Below are positions 16,301-22,300 of a stretch of DNA of 64,000 nucleotides, piece by piece (within the stretch, counting starts at the first letter, position 1; every line of letters begins with the position of its first letter). A program made the position numbers. The stretch lies in NCBI RefSeq assembly GCF_058153355.1, contig NZ_CM177019.1. One strand, written 5' to 3'.

Positions 16301-19300
16301 GATCCTCTGGTCGCTGTTCCCGCACCATCGTTACCTACTGGATACCGATTTCACTGTTAATGATGAACTGGTAAAAACAGGTTACGCCGTGAAGCCGATT
16401 GCCGGTCGCTGTGGCAGCAATATCGACCTTGTCAGCCATCATGAAGAGGTGCTGGACAAAACCAGCGGTAAATTTGCCGAGCAGAAAAACATTTACCAGC
16501 AACTGTGGTGCTTGCCGAAAGTGGACGGTAAATACATCCAGGTATGTACTTTCACCGTTGGCGGCAACTACGGCGGTACTTGCTTGCGCGGTGATGAATC
16601 ACTGGTCATCAAAAAAGAGAGTGATATTGAACCGTTAATTGTCGTGAAAGAGTAATAGATGTTGTAGCAGCCCCGTACTGATTATGAAGAATAATCAGTA
16701 CGGGGAATAATTAAAATATTCAATATTTATATATTTCAATGTCTATTCATTTTATATGTGAATATATTAACCAGCAGAATACCTGTGTTCTAATTATTTT
16801 TAAATATTTTGAATGAATGCTTATTGTCTGATACACAAGAAATAACTCACTTTTTATTGTTAAAAGATGATATTTCACTTTGCCCACGCCGTGAAAGTCA
16901 CTGATAATGCGTCCGTTCGTAAATTCAAAATGGCGTAATCTAATATATGCTAAATTTATTTGTTGGCCTTGATATATACACAGGGCTTTTGTTATTACTT
17001 GCTCTGGCATTTGTGTTGTTCTACGAAGCAATCAATGGTTTTCATGACACGGCGAATGCGGTGGCAACCGTTATTTATACTCGTGCCATGCAGCCACAGC
17101 TTGCCGTGGTGATGGCGGCATTTTTTAACTTTTTTGGCGTATTGCTAGGCGGACTTAGCGTTGCCTATGCCATTGTCCATATGTTGCCAACCGATTTGTT
17201 GCTGAATATGGGGTCAACTCACGGCCTGGCGATGGTCTTTTCCATGCTGCTGGCGGCGATTATCTGGAACCTGGGAACGTGGTTCTTTGGTTTACCGGCC
17301 TCCAGTTCGCATACCTTGATTGGTGCGATTATCGGCATCGGTTTAACCAACGCGCTGTTAACCGGCTCATCGGTGATGGATGCGTTAAACCTGCGTGAAG
17401 TGACTAAAATTTTCTCCTCGCTGATTGTTTCCCCTATCGTCGGCCTGGTCATTGCGGGAGGCCTGATATTCCTGCTGCGCCGCTACTGGAGCGGGACGAA
17501 AAAGCGTGACCGTATTCACCGCATTCCGGAAGATCGCAAAAAGAAAAAAGGCAAACGTAAGCCACCATTCTGGACGCGTATTGCGCTGATTGTTTCCGCT
17601 GCGGGCGTGGCGTTTTCGCACGGCGCGAACGACGGGCAGAAAGGGATCGGCCTGGTGATGCTGGTACTGGTGGGGATTGCTCCTGCTGGTTTCGTCGTCA
17701 ATATGAATGCGTCCGGCTATGAAATTACCCGTACCCGCGATGCCGTCACCAACTTTGAACACTATCTGCAACAGCATCCTGAACTGCCGCAGAAGTTGAT
17801 TGCGATGGAACCTCCATTGCCTGCGGCATCGACTGATGGCACGCAAGTAACGGAGTTTCATTGTCATCCGGCAAATACCTTTGATGCGATTGCGCGCGTT
17901 AAAACGATGTTGCCAGGTAATATGGAAAGCTACGAGCCGTTAAGCGTGAGTCAGCGCAGCCAGCTGCGCCGCATTATGCTGTGCATCTCTGATACCTCTG
18001 CGAAGCTGGCGAAACTGCCAGGCGTCAGTAAAGAAGATCAGAACCTGCTGAAAAAACTGCGCAGCGATATGTTAAGCACCATTGAGTACGCTCCGGTGTG
18101 GATCATCATGGCGGTAGCACTGGCGCTCGGCATTGGCACCATGATTGGCTGGCGTCGTGTAGCGATGACCATCGGTGAGAAGATTGGTAAGCGCGGCATG
18201 ACGTATGCGCAAGGCATGGCGGCACAAATGACGGCGGCAGTGTCTATCGGCCTTGCCAGTTATATTGGGATGCCCGTCTCCACAACGCACGTCCTCTCGT
18301 CTGCGGTAGCAGGGACGATGGTGGTGGACGGCGGTGGGTTACAGCGTAAAACGGTAACCAGCATCCTGATGGCGTGGGTGTTTACTTTACCGGCGGCGAT
18401 TTTTCTGTCTGGTGGGTTGTACTGGATAGCATTGCAGTGGATTTAACCTTCCTGAAAATGCCCGGTCCTGGCGATCGGGCATTTCCATTTTTGACTAGTG
18501 ATAACCACACGCGGTCATAAAATCCGTAATCGCTTTTTCTGCATCAACCAGCACCTTTTCCAGTGGCTGATTGGCGTCGATATCAACCAGTTGTGCACCA
18601 CCAAAGGTTAACTGTGGCGTTATGGCAATCTTTCTCGCCAGCGATTCCCGTTTATGGTCGGGTTTACGCGCGCAGGCAACTTCAAGGTCAACATTGAGTT
18701 TGATGACCAGATCAGGCTTATGGCTCGCCATCCAGTGAAATGCTTTACGTTCCTGGCTTGCCAGCCATGAGACAAACCAGCCGCCTTCAACGTTAGGTGG
18801 GAACACCGTACCATCGTAAGCGCCAGGAATTTGGTCCTGAGGATAACGATCGGTTAAGACAATCAGCCCGCGACGACGACAGGCGAGCATATGACGAAAG
18901 CGTAACAGTCGGCGGGCGACGAAAGCGGTGATCACCAGGGCCGGAACCGGACCCGGCAATTTTTTTGCCGTTTTCACTTCATTTTTTTCAATAGTCTTGT
19001 GCAGAGACTTTCCCATCAACGGTAATTTTGTCACTGCACGACCGACATTTCCGGCCTGTTTTCCTAAATGAACTCTTTCGGCAGCACCATATTTTTCGAC
19101 AACGGTAATAAGATGTTCACACACCGTTGACTTGCCTGAACCATCGCTACCAATAACGGCAATTAATGGAGGTGTTATTGACTGCATGAATATATCCTTA
19201 AATTTAAATATCCATCCAAAATATTTATTTGGTTAATATGTTTTTATGAAAGCGTAATTCAGGTCAATGTCACAATTAACCATTGTCACAATAAGGTTGA

Positions 19301-22300
19301 ACGGATATTCTGAGCACGGACCACGTAATATTCAATACATTATTTGCTGCCGGGTTTTTCGTGAATCAACGTAATATGTCAATAATTAATTCCACGCCAG
19401 TGCGTGTTATTGCCATTGTAGGATGTGATGGTTCAGGTAAATCGACCCTCACGGCAAGCCTGGTAAATGAACTGGCAGCAACAATGCCAACAGAACACAT
19501 TTATCTCGGGCAATCGTCCGGGCGAATTGGCGAATGGATTTCACAGCTCCCTGTTATTGGCGCACCTTTTGGGCGTTATCTGCGAAGTAAAGCGGCACAT
19601 GTGCACGAAAAGCCCTCCACACCGCCTGGCAATATTACTGCGCTGGTTATCTATCTGCTTTCCTGCTGGCGGGCGTATAAGTTTCGCAAAATGTTGTGTA
19701 AAAGCCAGCAAGGCTATCTGCTCATCACCGACCGCTACCCGCAGGTTGAAGTGCCGGGTTTTCGCTTTGATGGCCCGCAACTGGCAAAAAACACGGGCGG
19801 TAACGGCTGGATAAAAATGTTAAGACAGCGCGAGCTCAAACTTTACCAATGGATGGCGTCTTATTTGCCCGTATTGTTGATTCGTCTTGGCATTGATGAA
19901 CAAACCGCGTTTGCGCGTAAACCTGACCACCAACTGGCGGCGTTACAGGAAAAAATCGCTGTTACGCCGCAACTGACATTCAATGGCGCAAAGATCCTTG
20001 AACTGGATGGTCGGCAACCAGCCGATGAAATTCTGCAAGCGTCACTACGCGCAATTCACGCCGCGCTTTCCTGATCACCAAATGGATAGGGGATGATTTA
20101 ACGAATGGATGCACTACAAACACAAACTGTTAATAGTACAACCGCGCCGCAGCCCAACTACATTTCGGGGCTGATTGCGGTGGTCGGGTGTGATGGCACC
20201 GGTAAATCCACACTGACCACTGACCTGGTGAAATCGCTGCAACAACACTGGCAAACCGAGCGCCGCTATCTGGGGCTGCTCTCCGGCGAAGACGGCGACA
20301 AAATCAAACGGTTGCCGCTCGTTGGCGTCTGGCTGGAACGGCGACTGGCGGCCAAATCCTCGAAAACCCAAAGCATGAAAACCAAATCTCCGGCGCTATG
20401 GGCGGCGGTGATTATGTACTGCTTCTCGCTGCGAAGAATGGCGAATCTACGCAAGGTTCAGCGACTGGCGCAAAGTGGCGTTCTGGTGGTCAGCGATCGC
20501 TTCCCGCAGGCTGAAATTTCGGGCTTTTATTATGACGGCCCGGGGATTGGCGTCGAGCGTGCGACCGGGAAAATCAGCATGTTTCTGGCACAGCGCGAAC
20601 GGCGTTTATACCAAAAAATGGCGCAATACCGTCCTGAATTAATTATTCGTTTGGGGATTGATATTGATACTGCCATCTCCCGCAAGCCTGACCATGACTA
20701 TGCCGAGCTGCAGGACAAAATCGGTGTCATGTCGACGATTGGCTATAACGGCACAAAAATTCTTGAGATTGATTCCAGAGCGCCCTACAGCGAAGTGCTG
20801 GAACAGGCACAGAAGGCGGTTTCTCTGGTTGCAATCGTTTCTGACCGCCGAAGTTTAACTTAAGGTTGGCGGGATACTTTTTACTATCAACGATAAGGTC
20901 AGGCTGAATTGGCGGGGTTTAACATCAAACATTGGTTTGCAGATGGCGCGTTTCGCACCATTATTCGCAATAGCGCCTGGTTAGGCTCCAGTAATGTCGT
21001 GAGCGCTTTGCTGGGTCTGTTGGCGCTCTCGTGTGCCGGTAAAGGGATGACGCCCGCCATGTTTGGCGTACTGGTGATTGTGCAATCGTACGCCAAGTCG
21101 ATCAGCGATTTTATTAAGTTTCAGACATGGCAGCTGGTGGTTCAGTACGGAACGCCAGCCTTGACCAATAATAATCCGCAGCAATTTCGCAATGTCGTCT
21201 CATTTTCCTTCTCGTTGGATATCGTTAGCGGCGCGGTGGCGATTGTCGGCGGCATTGCCTTACTCCCTTTTCTTTCCCATTCATTAGGTCTGGATGACCA
21301 AAGCTTTTGGCTGGCAGCGCTGTATTGCACGCTCATTCCTTCAATGGCTTCCTCCACACCGACCGGCATTCTGCGTGCGGTAGATCGCTTCGATTTGATT
21401 GCTGTACAGCAGGCGACGAAACCTTTTCTGCGCGCAGCGGGGAGCGTCGTAGCCTGGTATTTTGATTTTGGTTTTGCGGGTTTTGTTATTGCCTGGTACG
21501 CATCGAATCTGGTTGGCGGCACCATGTACTGGTGGTTTGCCGCGCGCGAATTACGCCGCAGAAATATCCATAACGCCTTCAAATTGAATCTGTTTGAGTC
21601 TGCCCGACACATTAAAGGCGCGTGGAGTTTTGTCTGGTCAACCAACATTGCCCACTCCATCTGGTCGGCACGTAACTCGTGCAGCACAGTGTTGGTGGGG
21701 ATCGTGTTAGGACCCGCTGCCGCCGGGTTATTTAAAATCGCCATGACATTCTTCGATGCCGCCGGAACGCCAGCGGGTTTACTGGGCAAAAGTTTTTACC
21801 CAGAGGTGATGCGTTTAGATCCGCGCACCACCAGACCGTGGTTGTTAGGCGTGAAGTCCGGTTTACTGGCGGGCGGAATCGGTATTCTGGTGGCGCTCGC
21901 GGTGTTGATCGTCGGCAAGCCGCTCATTTCGCTGGTGTTTGGCGTTAAGTATCTCGAAGCGTATGACCTGATTCAGGTGATGCTTGGCGCAATTGTGATT
22001 TCGATGCTGGGCTTCCCACAGGAGTCATTGCTATTGATGGCGGGAAAACAGCGCGCTTTTCTCGTGGCGCAAACCATCGCCTCAATCGGCTACATCGTAT
22101 TGCTGTTCATGTTCTGTCATCTGTTTGGCGTGCTGGGGGCTGCATTTGCTTACTTCGGTGGGCAATGTCTGGATGTGGTGCTCTCGTTAATTCCAACCTT
22201 AAAGGCATTTTTTCAGCGCCATTCCTTGCTTTATAACGCAGCCGGAGAGAAATCCTGATGATGAGAAAATATTTCCCGCTTGAGGCGAGCGAGCGTCTAT

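What the first reader, a model, noticed from the sequence alone, without database searches (positions are those of the whole stretch)
18495..20863. Three tandem paralogous P-loop proteins (yghT, yghS, yghR) bordering the lipid locus
Three ORFs of 230-252 aa share Walker A 'G(S/C)DG(S/T)GKST', a 'TDR(Y/F)PQ' motif and an 'ARKPDH' motif, with one arranged divergently from the other two. Their size and motifs suggest small-molecule kinases, possibly with different substrate specificities towards lipid or headgroup intermediates.
Basis: inference. Interest (0 to 1): 0.4.

Follow-up and report, generated by a model that had tools for sequence, protein, structure and literature searches.

The report
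Three paralogous kinases beside sphingolipid genes
Three related, uncharacterised kinase genes of E. coli (yghT, yghS, yghR) belong to an ancient three-gene set that, together with a lipid flippase and a polyphosphate-binding-like protein, travels with bacterial sphingolipid genes, so they probably add the phosphate-containing head group of a still unidentified outer-membrane lipid.

Summary
The three ORFs sit at exactly the stated coordinates. They are clear paralogs (BLASTP E 2e-45 to 8e-63) and share Walker A, DR(Y/F)PQ and RKPDH motifs. One detail needs correcting: YghR reads SDRFPQ and SRKPDH.

Across 80 proteobacterial species T, S and R form three clean, ancient clades, and all three keep their catalytic residues. 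The order T(-)S(+)R(+) recurs in 49 of 79 loci. Natural S-R and T-R fusions exist.

Within 10 kb of the kinases there is a YghQ flippase in 59 of 80 loci, the 274-aa unknown gene in 50, and spt in 48. The model of that 274-aa protein is CHAD-like, i.e. it resembles a polyphosphate-binding module.

This pairing recalls archaeal PPK3, which combines thymidylate-kinase-like paralogs with a CHAD protein. Membership of PPK3 is not shown.

Best reading: these are head-group phosphotransferases of the E. coli-type sphingolipid pathway. The substrate is unknown. A ceramide oligophosphate head group is an unexcluded, novel possibility.

The parts
18495..19187 (-). yghT, a 230-aa P-loop kinase of the T clade, transcribed divergently from yghS
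   Evidence: ORF; RefSeq yghT; motifs [15 protein letters not shown] and ARKPDH; T clade defined.
19188..19360 (.). 173-bp AT-rich divergent intergenic region between yghT and yghS, a likely shared control region
   Evidence: Sequence. One sigma-70-like match at 19283-19311 (+), which is no more than chance expectation. A divergent T/S gap was measured in 53 loci, median 227 nt between the ends of the tblastn alignments. A FlhDC SELEX peak is reported in this spacer in K-12 (PMC9962212).
19361..20074 (+). yghS, a 237-aa P-loop kinase of the S clade
20105..20863 (+). yghR, a 252-aa P-loop kinase of the R clade, starting 30 nt after the yghS stop
20909..22258 (+). yghQ, a full-length 449-aa MOP-family (Wzx-like) flippase
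   Evidence: Pfam Polysacc_synt at 1e-10; NCBIfam MOP flippase; found within 10 kb of the kinases in 59 of 80 loci; truncated by IS5 in K-12.
22258..23082 (+). 274-aa CHAD-like protein, annotated 'hypothetical', whose start overlaps the yghQ stop by 1 nt (TGATG)
23091..23654 (+). YtfJ-family protein
   Evidence: Pfam YtfJ_HI0045 at 9e-59. Found in 33 Enterobacterales loci and in no other locus.
23685..24755 (+). lptF paralog (LptF2-type permease)
   Evidence: Pfam LptF_LptG at 1e-55. LptF2/G2 are required for sphingolipid transport in Caulobacter (bioRxiv 10.64898/2026.04.12.717747).
24752..25831 (+). lptG paralog (LptG2-type permease), overlapping lptF2 by 4 nt
   Evidence: Pfam LptF_LptG at 7e-69; coordinates.
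25866..27038 (-). spt, serine palmitoyltransferase
   Evidence: RefSeq annotation. The E. coli B enzyme has been characterised (PMC9386255).
27038..27286 (-). acpR, the specialised acyl carrier protein
27318..28232 (-). cerR-type epimerase/dehydratase-family reductase
28229..29938 (-). aasR, acyl-AcpR synthetase (annotated fatty acyl-AMP ligase)
30311..31453 (+). yghO, ortholog of the bacterial ceramide synthase gene (CC_1154)
   Evidence: PMC9386255 Figure 9 legend.

Best explanation
[quoted passage not shown] They are not dTMP kinases. All three are predicted to be catalytically competent and they probably work together, possibly as a hetero-oligomer. With the MOP flippase YghQ and a CHAD-like protein they form the head-group module of the E. 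coli-type sphingolipid locus. Proposed mechanism, all steps inferred: (1) ceramide is made by Spt, AcpR, AasR, CerR and YghO; (2) it is phosphorylated at the cytoplasmic face by these ATP-dependent kinases, each paralog taking a different acceptor or step; (3) the CHAD-like protein binds the anionic phosphate head group; (4) YghQ flips the lipid across the inner membrane; (5) LptF2/LptG2 export it to the outer membrane. What is shown: paralogy, fold, motif conservation, gene linkage and gene fusions. What is inferred: the substrate, complex formation and the order of steps.

For: Not a dTMP kinase. Pfam Thymidylate_kin scores are 18-26 bits against a cut-off of 27. NCBIfam DTMP_kinase scores are 25-31 bits against a cut-off of 83.

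Family size. 2174 cluster representatives match at E<=1e-3 and 1297 at E<=1e-10.

Ancient trio. 203 kinases from 79 loci fall into three clean clades, with 0.55-0.58 identity within clades and 0.35-0.43 between them. 55 of 80 loci carry three paralogs and 5 carry four. The order T(-)S(+)R(+) occurs in 49 of 79 loci.

Catalytic residues. The Walker A Lys and Thr, the Asp-Arg of the DRx motif and the RKPDH lid are at least 90% conserved in every clade.

Cooperation. Natural S-R fusions (P0121, P0123) and T-R fusions (P0122, P0124) exist.

Linkage. Within 10 kb of the kinases: YghQ in 59 of 80 loci, the CHAD-like gene in 50, spt in 48, LptF2 in 34. The linkage holds in rearranged gene orders in Serratia, Sodalis and an unidentified lineage. 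One protein fuses a flippase with this kinase domain and another fuses a GT4 glycosyltransferase with it (P0219, P0259).

Operon structure. yghS, yghR, yghQ, the CHAD-like gene, ytfJ, lptF2 and lptG2 lie on one strand. Their gaps are at most 45 nt, or they overlap by 1 or 4 nt.

Phosphate chemistry in the neighbourhood. The partner protein is CHAD-like. Recurrent neighbours elsewhere are PAP2 lipid phosphatases (20 + 9 loci), a DgkA paralog (16), an LpxO-like hydroxylase (22) and a PEMT/ICMT-like membrane methyltransferase (14).

No other head-group enzyme. The E. coli locus has no CpgA-D-type head-group enzymes and no LCB5-type kinase. A YegS-like gene was found in only 1 of 80 loci. The kinases are strongly basic, with a median net charge of +10 to +14.
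Against: No experiment links these proteins to any lipid, and the E. coli sphingolipid end product is unknown in the literature I could search.

spt is not within 10 kb in 32 of 80 loci. At least one locus (L091) has fused kinases, the CHAD-like gene, a flippase and a histidine phosphatase but no spt nearby. The module may therefore serve another lipid or polymer in some organisms.

K-12 keeps yghTSR intact even though IS5 has removed the lipid genes.

The proteins have no predicted membrane segment.

The CHAD assignment rests mainly on a predicted structure. Foldseek E-values are weak (0.2), the E. coli protein itself has no Pfam hit, and hhalign against YgiF was negative.

Neighbour-family counts come from my own crude ORF calling.
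Confidence: 0.6

Rival explanations
1. The three kinases build a phosphoanhydride chain on the lipid. A DgkA-type kinase first makes ceramide-1-phosphate. YghT, YghS and YghR then act like NMP kinases or PPK3 on a phosphate acceptor, adding further phosphates either stepwise or as a heteromeric polymerase. The CHAD-like protein binds the resulting oligophosphate before it is flipped. This is a sharper version of the best explanation.
Against: No lipid-linked oligophosphate of this kind is known. The DRx arginine is also conserved in deoxynucleoside kinases, which phosphorylate hydroxyl groups, so the motifs do not reveal the type of acceptor. By sequence the family is no closer to the PPK3 homolog than to ordinary dTMP kinases: 2plr matches only over the P-loop, at E 3.9e-6. 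All three paralogs keep the DRx arginine, whereas the regulatory PPK3 subunit has lost it. There is no PPX gene in the locus.
Confidence: 0.22
2. The three kinases each phosphorylate a different hydroxyl group of the ceramide, in the way deoxynucleoside kinases phosphorylate a hydroxyl. The candidates are C1-OH, C3-OH and an acyl-chain hydroxyl. The product would be a multiply phosphorylated, lipid-A-like anionic lipid.
Against: No counterpart of the catalytic glutamate that follows strand 2 in deoxynucleoside kinases is visible; the segment reads (Y/H)LG in all clades. This model gives no role to a polyphosphate-binding-like partner, and it makes the DgkA paralog redundant.
Confidence: 0.2
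3. The trio plus the CHAD-like protein is a soluble PPK3-like polyphosphate kinase, or a polyphosphate-dependent nucleotide kinase. It serves phosphate and energy metabolism and is only a neighbour of the lipid genes.
For: The parallel with the Sulfolobus PPK3 operon is strong: dTMP-kinase-like paralogs plus a CHAD protein. K-12 retains yghTSR without the lipid genes. L091 lacks spt nearby and has a histidine phosphatase. pitB, a phosphate transporter gene, is adjacent in E. coli.
Against: The kinases are in an operon with a MOP flippase, whose stop overlaps the start of the CHAD-like gene. The flippase accompanies the kinases in 59 of 80 loci, and in one protein it is fused to the kinase domain. 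spt is nearby in 48 of 80 loci, in different gene orders. There is no PPX gene. To my own knowledge E. coli already has PPK1. All three paralogs keep the DRx arginine, unlike the catalytic/regulatory subunit pair of PPK3.
Confidence: 0.13
4. They are genuine thymidylate or nucleotide kinases, as RefSeq names yghS and yghT.
For: The best Pfam and NCBIfam matches are to dTMP kinase, and the fold match is to dTMP kinases. The FSxxR segment of dTMP kinases is partly retained.
Against: All scores are below the curated cut-offs: 25-31 bits against 83 for TIGR00041. Only about 166 of 252 residues superpose on dTMP kinases, so roughly 85 residues lie outside the shared core. The REPGGT acceptor segment is replaced. 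To my own knowledge the housekeeping tmk gene is elsewhere in E. coli. Three copies in a lipid-export operon make no sense for nucleotide supply.
Confidence: 0.03

Closest known systems
Archaeal PPK3, the heteromeric polyphosphate kinase of Sulfolobus acidocaldarius (Saci_2019/Saci_2020; PMC12995831)
   Different: This system has three paralogs rather than two, and all keep the DRx arginine that the regulatory PPK3 subunit has lost. No PPX gene is present. The genes are in an operon with a MOP flippase and LptF/G paralogs and are linked to spt. Sequence similarity to 2plr is limited to the P-loop. No activity data exist.
Thymidylate kinase (Tmk; PF02223, TIGR00041)
   Same: The fold, the GxDGxGK(S/T) P-loop with its aspartate, the DR(Y/F) motif and a basic lid after strand 4 are shared.
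   Different: Scores are below the family cut-offs. Only about 166 of 252 residues superpose on dTMP kinases, so roughly 85 residues lie outside the shared core. The family has its own signatures: (Y/H)LGxxxG, LPxxG, DR(Y/F)PQ...DG and RKPDH. The genomic context is different.
Caulobacter CpgB ceramide kinase and the CpgA-D head-group pathway
   Same: They occupy the same position in the pathway: head-group enzymes encoded inside an Spt, CerR, CerS, flippase and LptF2/G2 locus. They produce an anionic sphingolipid.
   Different: CpgB has the LCB5/DAG-kinase fold with a GGDG motif, not a P-loop. The Caulobacter cluster contains no YghT/S/R-like or CHAD-like gene, and the E. coli locus has no CpgA-D-type enzymes.
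CHAD domain proteins (PF05235), for the 274-aa partner protein
   Different: The E. coli protein has no Pfam CHAD hit, and relatives match only weakly (best E 6.7e-4). It is linked to a flippase and to lipid genes rather than to PPK, PPX or CYTH enzymes.

Membership tests
Thymidylate kinase (PF02223 / TIGR00041) | Score at or above the curated family cut-off | tested here: not met
   Pfam gives 21.1, 18.4 and 26.0 bits against a cut-off of 27. TIGR00041 gives 25.6, 24.7 and 31.3 bits against 83.25.
Thymidylate kinase (PF02223 / TIGR00041) | P-loop kinase fold with P-loop, DRx motif and lid | tested here: met
Thymidylate kinase (PF02223 / TIGR00041) | dTMP-binding residues (the REPGGT segment and the stacking Phe of FSxxR) | tested here: inconclusive
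   The REPGGT segment is replaced by (Y/H)LGxxxG. The Arg of FSxxR is conserved in all clades, but the Phe is conserved only in the T clade. This judgement comes from an HMM alignment, not from a superposition.
Thymidylate kinase (PF02223 / TIGR00041) | dTMP kinase activity | not testable with these tools
   Needs an enzyme assay.
PPK3 polyphosphate kinase (PMC12995831) | Adjacent dTMP-kinase-like paralogs encoded with polyphosphate-associated genes (CHAD, PPX, SixA) | tested here: inconclusive
   The paralogs and a CHAD-like gene are present. No PPX gene is present. A His_Phos_1 gene was seen only in L091.
PPK3 polyphosphate kinase (PMC12995831) | One catalytic subunit plus one regulatory subunit that lacks the DRx arginine | tested here: not met
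   The Asp-Arg pair is at least 90% conserved in all three clades.
PPK3 polyphosphate kinase (PMC12995831) | Placement inside the PPK3 clade of the dTMP-kinase superfamily | tested here: inconclusive
PPK3 polyphosphate kinase (PMC12995831) | Reversible polyphosphate:nucleotide phosphotransfer | not testable with these tools
   Needs an enzyme assay.
CHAD domain (PF05235), for the 274-aa protein | Two four-helix bundles, all-alpha, about 200-300 residues | tested here: met
CHAD domain (PF05235), for the 274-aa protein | Pfam model match at the gathering score | tested here: not met
   The window protein has no hit. 10 of 36 homologs match weakly, best E 6.7e-4. hhalign against E. coli YgiF was negative.
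CHAD domain (PF05235), for the 274-aa protein | Conserved basic surface residues | tested here: inconclusive
   There are 18 columns at least 80% K/R/H, including R88, R90, K92, H93, R95, H193, R196 and K197.
CHAD domain (PF05235), for the 274-aa protein | Polyphosphate binding | not testable with these tools
   Needs a binding assay.
CpgB-type bacterial ceramide kinase (LCB5 / DAGK_cat) | DAG-kinase catalytic domain with a GGDG motif | tested here: not met
   There is no DAGK_cat hit. The proteins are P-loop kinases.
PPK2 (PF03976) | Pfam match and closest fold | tested here: not met

The most novel reading that the evidence does not exclude
E. coli and many other Proteobacteria may make a sphingolipid whose head group is an oligophosphate or polyphosphate chain. 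In this reading YghT, YghS and YghR are a PPK3-like, heteromeric, phosphoanhydride-forming kinase system that extends ceramide-1-phosphate. The CHAD-like protein binds the growing chain. YghQ flips the lipid and LptF2/G2 export it, giving a lipid-anchored polyphosphate on the outer membrane.
Probability: 0.2. Interest if true: 0.9.

Novelty: new variant of a known kind. Interest (0 to 1): 0.6.

Why it matters
About three quarters of complete E. coli genomes (4066 of 5426) carry an intact sphingolipid locus whose final product and head group are unknown. The Caulobacter pathway (CpgA-D) does not apply, because E. coli lacks those genes. This analysis nominates the missing head-group machinery: three co-inherited kinases, a CHAD-like protein and a flippase. 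That makes the question directly testable with four or five deletions and lipid mass spectrometry. It also corrects a widespread 'dTMP kinase' annotation. Finally, it extends the recently recognised theme that thymidylate-kinase paralogs paired with CHAD proteins have been recruited for phosphate-polymer chemistry. If the head group is an oligophosphate, it would be a new class of envelope lipid, relevant to outer-membrane charge, polymyxin binding and innate immune recognition.

Tried and rejected
- **Literature.** No functional study of yghT, yghS or yghR was found. They appear only in gene lists. No paper describes the E. coli sphingolipid head group.
- **CpgB homology.** Rejected, because CpgB has the LCB5 fold. 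The supplements describing the Caulobacter cluster list no P-loop kinase.
- **Defence-system role.** PADLOC gives only P-loop-level matches (E > 1e-4) and nothing for the CHAD-like protein.
- **Transmembrane anchoring.** The maximum 19-residue Kyte-Doolittle hydropathy is at most 1.35, so no membrane segment is predicted.
- **Sequence link of the 274-aa protein to solved structures.** The profile search found nothing, and hhalign against E. coli YgiF was negative. NCBIfam found nothing.
- **Neighbour of the ~500-aa subfamily.** The 231-aa protein next to P0166 is not CHAD-like, and the context of P0166 has no spt. The kinase-CHAD link is therefore shown only for the T/S/R branch.
- **AlphaFold-database fold library (afdb50).** It was unavailable.
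- **LCB5-type kinases near the trio.** tblastn with YegS found one hit in 80 loci. This test has low sensitivity.
- **Promoter and terminator scan.** Nothing was found above chance expectation.
- **Not possible.** I could not obtain the Saci_2019/2020 sequences, so there is no joint phylogeny with PPK3. No multimer prediction was possible either.

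
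Full report
**1. Observation.** The window is an Escherichia coli chromosome segment running hyb-yghU-gss-pitB-yghT-yghS-yghR-yghQ-...-spt-...-yghO-glc. It is 99.7% identical to strain WL297. ORFs of 230, 237 and 252 aa lie at 18495-19187 (-), 19361-20074 (+) and 20105-20863 (+), exactly as reported. They are unambiguous paralogs, with BLASTP E-values of 8e-55 (T/S), 2e-45 (T/R) and 8e-63 (S/R) and 33-43% identity (alignment A1). The three motifs are present. In YghR, however, they read SDRFPQ and SRKPDH rather than TDR(Y/F)PQ and ARKPDH. yghT is divergent from yghS-yghR across a 173-bp AT-rich spacer.

**2. What the proteins are.** The best Pfam and NCBIfam matches are to thymidylate kinase, but all lie below the curated cut-offs: Pfam 18-26 bits against 27, and TIGR00041 25-31 bits against 83.

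- An AlphaFold2 model of YghR built on a 63-sequence alignment is confident (pLDDT 89.9, pTM 0.85).
- Only about 166 of 252 residues superpose on dTMP kinases, so roughly 85 residues lie outside the shared core.
- The 63-sequence profile reaches solved dTMP kinases at E 5e-12 to 1e-6.

The proteins therefore belong to the dTMP-kinase superfamily but are not Tmk. RefSeq's product name 'dTMP kinase' for yghS and yghT is not supported. The family is sizeable: 2174 cluster representatives match at E<=1e-3, and the signatures G.DG.GK[ST], DR[YF]P and RKP.H recur throughout. The proteins have no predicted membrane segment and are strongly basic.

**3. An ancient, co-inherited trio.** A scan of one genome per species returned 80 loci. 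They come from Enterobacterales, Luteibacter and Dyella, Methylotenera, Nitrotoga, Halioglobus, sphingomonads, Acetobacter and Myxococcales.

- 55 loci carry three kinase paralogs, 5 carry four, 14 carry two and 6 carry one; several of the smaller counts are on truncated contigs.
- The 203 extracted kinases cluster into exactly three clades corresponding to T, S and R. Mean identity is 0.55-0.58 within clades and 0.35-0.43 between them.
- The order T(-)S(+)R(+) occurs in 49 of 79 loci, including 16 of 44 outside Enterobacterales. S and R are adjacent in 70 loci, with a median gap of about 58 nt.
- In every clade the Walker A Lys and Thr, the Asp-Arg of DRx, the RKPDH lid and several family-specific residues (G57, G61, P71, G74, R111, D144, E165) are at least 90% conserved. 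All three therefore look catalytically competent.
- Clade-specific residues concentrate in the segment after strand 2, the counterpart of the acceptor-binding REPGGT segment of dTMP kinases.
- Natural fusion proteins join S to R (P0121, P0123) and T to R (P0122, P0124). This argues that the paralogs act together.

**4. Context.** In the window, yghS, yghR, yghQ, a 274-aa unknown gene, ytfJ, lptF2 and lptG2 form a same-strand array with short gaps or overlaps. The yghQ stop overlaps the next gene's start as TGATG. This array converges on spt-acpR-cerR-aasR, with yghO beyond.

That lipid part is the known E. coli B sphingolipid locus. Its AasR, AcpR and Spt have been characterised biochemically (PMC9386255). 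Its LptF/G paralogs correspond to the Caulobacter sphingolipid transporters (bioRxiv 10.64898/2026.04.12.717747).

Counting genes within 10 kb of the kinases across the 80 loci gives: YghQ 59, the 274-aa protein 50, Spt 48, AcpR 47, CerR 46, AasR 43, LptF2 34. The linkage survives rearrangement in Serratia, Sodalis and an unidentified lineage that carries the S-R fusion. In sphingomonads the trio, YghQ and the 274-aa gene stay together while spt lies elsewhere. This is consistent with the dispersed sphingolipid genes reported for that group.

The tightest unit is thus kinases + flippase + the 274-aa protein. One protein fuses a MOP flippase with this kinase domain, and another fuses a GT4 glycosyltransferase with it (P0219, P0259).

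An unbiased clustering of all ORFs in the loci adds further recurrent neighbours:

- an LpxO-like hydroxylase (22 loci);
- PAP2 lipid phosphatases (20 + 9 loci);
- a DgkA paralog (16 loci);
- a PEMT/ICMT-like membrane methyltransferase (14 loci).

To my own knowledge these enzyme types modify lipid A phosphates and acyl chains (LpxO, LpxE/F, LmtA), and E. coli DgkA phosphorylates ceramide in vitro.

**5. The 274-aa partner is CHAD-like.** It has no Pfam or NCBIfam hit. Its AlphaFold2 model is confident (pLDDT 94.2, all-alpha).

- Foldseek ranks the same two CHAD entries first, with probability 0.91-0.96 but a weak E-value of 0.2.
- Ten of 36 homologs give weak Pfam CHAD hits, best E 6.7e-4.
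- One homolog is named a CHAD protein by UniRef.
- Eighteen columns are conserved basic residues.
- hhalign against YgiF was negative.

CHAD domains are specific polyphosphate-binding modules (bioRxiv 10.1101/567040).

Membership of PPK3 is not established, for four reasons:

- The sequence match to 2plr is limited to the P-loop.
- All three paralogs retain the DRx arginine that the regulatory PPK3 subunit lacks.
- There is no PPX gene.
- The context here is lipid export.

**7. Mechanism.** The Caulobacter head-group enzymes are absent from the E. coli locus. These are CpgB, an LCB5-fold ceramide kinase, plus CpgA, CpgC and CpgD. A YegS-like kinase was found near only 1 of 80 trios. The only candidate head-group enzymes in the conserved module are the three kinases.

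I therefore conclude, with about 0.6 confidence, that they phosphorylate the sphingolipid head group on the cytoplasmic side, before YghQ-mediated flipping and LptF2/G2 export.

Two sharper versions cannot be separated with the present data:

- **(a) Phosphoanhydride extension of ceramide-1-phosphate.** This is favoured by the dTMP-kinase/PPK3 affinity, the CHAD-like partner, the DgkA paralog and the PAP2 phosphatases.
- **(b) Phosphorylation of three different hydroxyl groups.** This is favoured by the existence of hydroxyl kinases of the same fold and by the LpxO-like hydroxylase neighbour.

A soluble polyphosphate-kinase role (about 0.13) and a true nucleotide-kinase role (about 0.03) are less likely, for the reasons listed under the rival explanations.

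**8. Population and K-12.** The yghTSR-yghQ stretch is present at 80% coverage or more in 4596 of 5426 complete E. coli genomes, and the full lipid locus in 4066. In K-12 MG1655 an IS5 element (insH9) replaces everything between a truncated yghQ and yghO, leaving yghR, yghS and yghT intact but orphaned.

**9. Verdict.** The genes themselves are known y-genes. Three points do not appear in the literature I could search: their organisation as an ancient three-clade set, their coupling to a flippase and a CHAD-like protein, and the parallel with PPK3. Together they turn the open question of the E. coli sphingolipid head group into a small set of decisive experiments.

Noticed in passing
window 20909-31453, compared with L006 (K-12 MG1655 3129043-3132408): In K-12 an IS5 element (insH9) replaces everything between a truncated yghQ and yghO. 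K-12 has therefore lost spt, acpR, cerR, aasR, lptF2/G2, ytfJ and the CHAD-like gene but keeps yghR, yghS and yghT intact. K-12 annotates yghO as a 'putative DNA-binding transcriptional regulator', although the literature treats it as the ceramide synthase ortholog.
   Followed up: partly
window 18495-20074 (L001 20496-22075): RefSeq names yghS and yghT 'dTMP kinase'. Their scores against NCBI's own dTMP kinase model are 25-26 bits against a cut-off of 83. This looks like over-annotation propagated to thousands of genomes.
   Followed up: yes
L002 1422-1784, L004 10801-11160, and 16 loci in all (cluster C18): Many Enterobacterales other than E. coli carry a second, 120-aa DgkA-type (DAGK_prokar) lipid kinase inside the sphingolipid locus, next to the yghO homolog. 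It is a candidate ceramide kinase. The E. coli window lacks it.
   Followed up: partly
Loci L046-L090 (clusters C13, C14, C21, C30); L010 7418-8188: Outside Enterobacterales the trio is often flanked by an LpxO-like Asp/Arg hydroxylase, PAP2 phosphatases and a PEMT/ICMT-like membrane methyltransferase. This enzyme set is reminiscent of lipid A remodelling.
   Followed up: partly
P0166, P0169, P0176 and about 60 other representatives of 470-530 aa: A large sister subfamily carries an N-terminal domain of about 250 aa with no Pfam match. Its motif (HWKSN..L..AL.G.TD.D.LV) resembles a nucleotidyltransferase signature. The domain is fused to a T-like kinase domain. The one context examined has DUF3373, a Ser/Thr kinase and a phosphoesterase, and no spt.
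   Followed up: partly
window 23091-23654: The YtfJ-family gene in the operon occurs in all 33 Enterobacterales loci that were long enough and in none of the other loci. It appears to be a lineage-specific addition of unknown role.
   Followed up: no
window 18000-22300: Only 17 of 5082 matching E. coli genomes are at least 99% identical here; most are 95-99%. The closest YghR in the species-level collection is from 'Escherichia sp. MOD1-EC7003'. The window therefore comes from a minority Escherichia lineage.
   Followed up: no
window 18456-18484: A 12-bp-stem GC-rich hairpin followed by a T-run lies between the convergent pitB and yghT genes. It is a plausible terminator for pitB, whose stop codon is about 10 nt upstream.
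   Followed up: no
L091 8008-12752: An unidentified low-GC bacterium has a T-R fused kinase, the CHAD-like gene, a YghQ-like flippase and a histidine phosphatase (His_Phos_1) next to rmlBADC, with no spt within 10 kb. The module may serve a different lipid or polymer there.
   Followed up: partly
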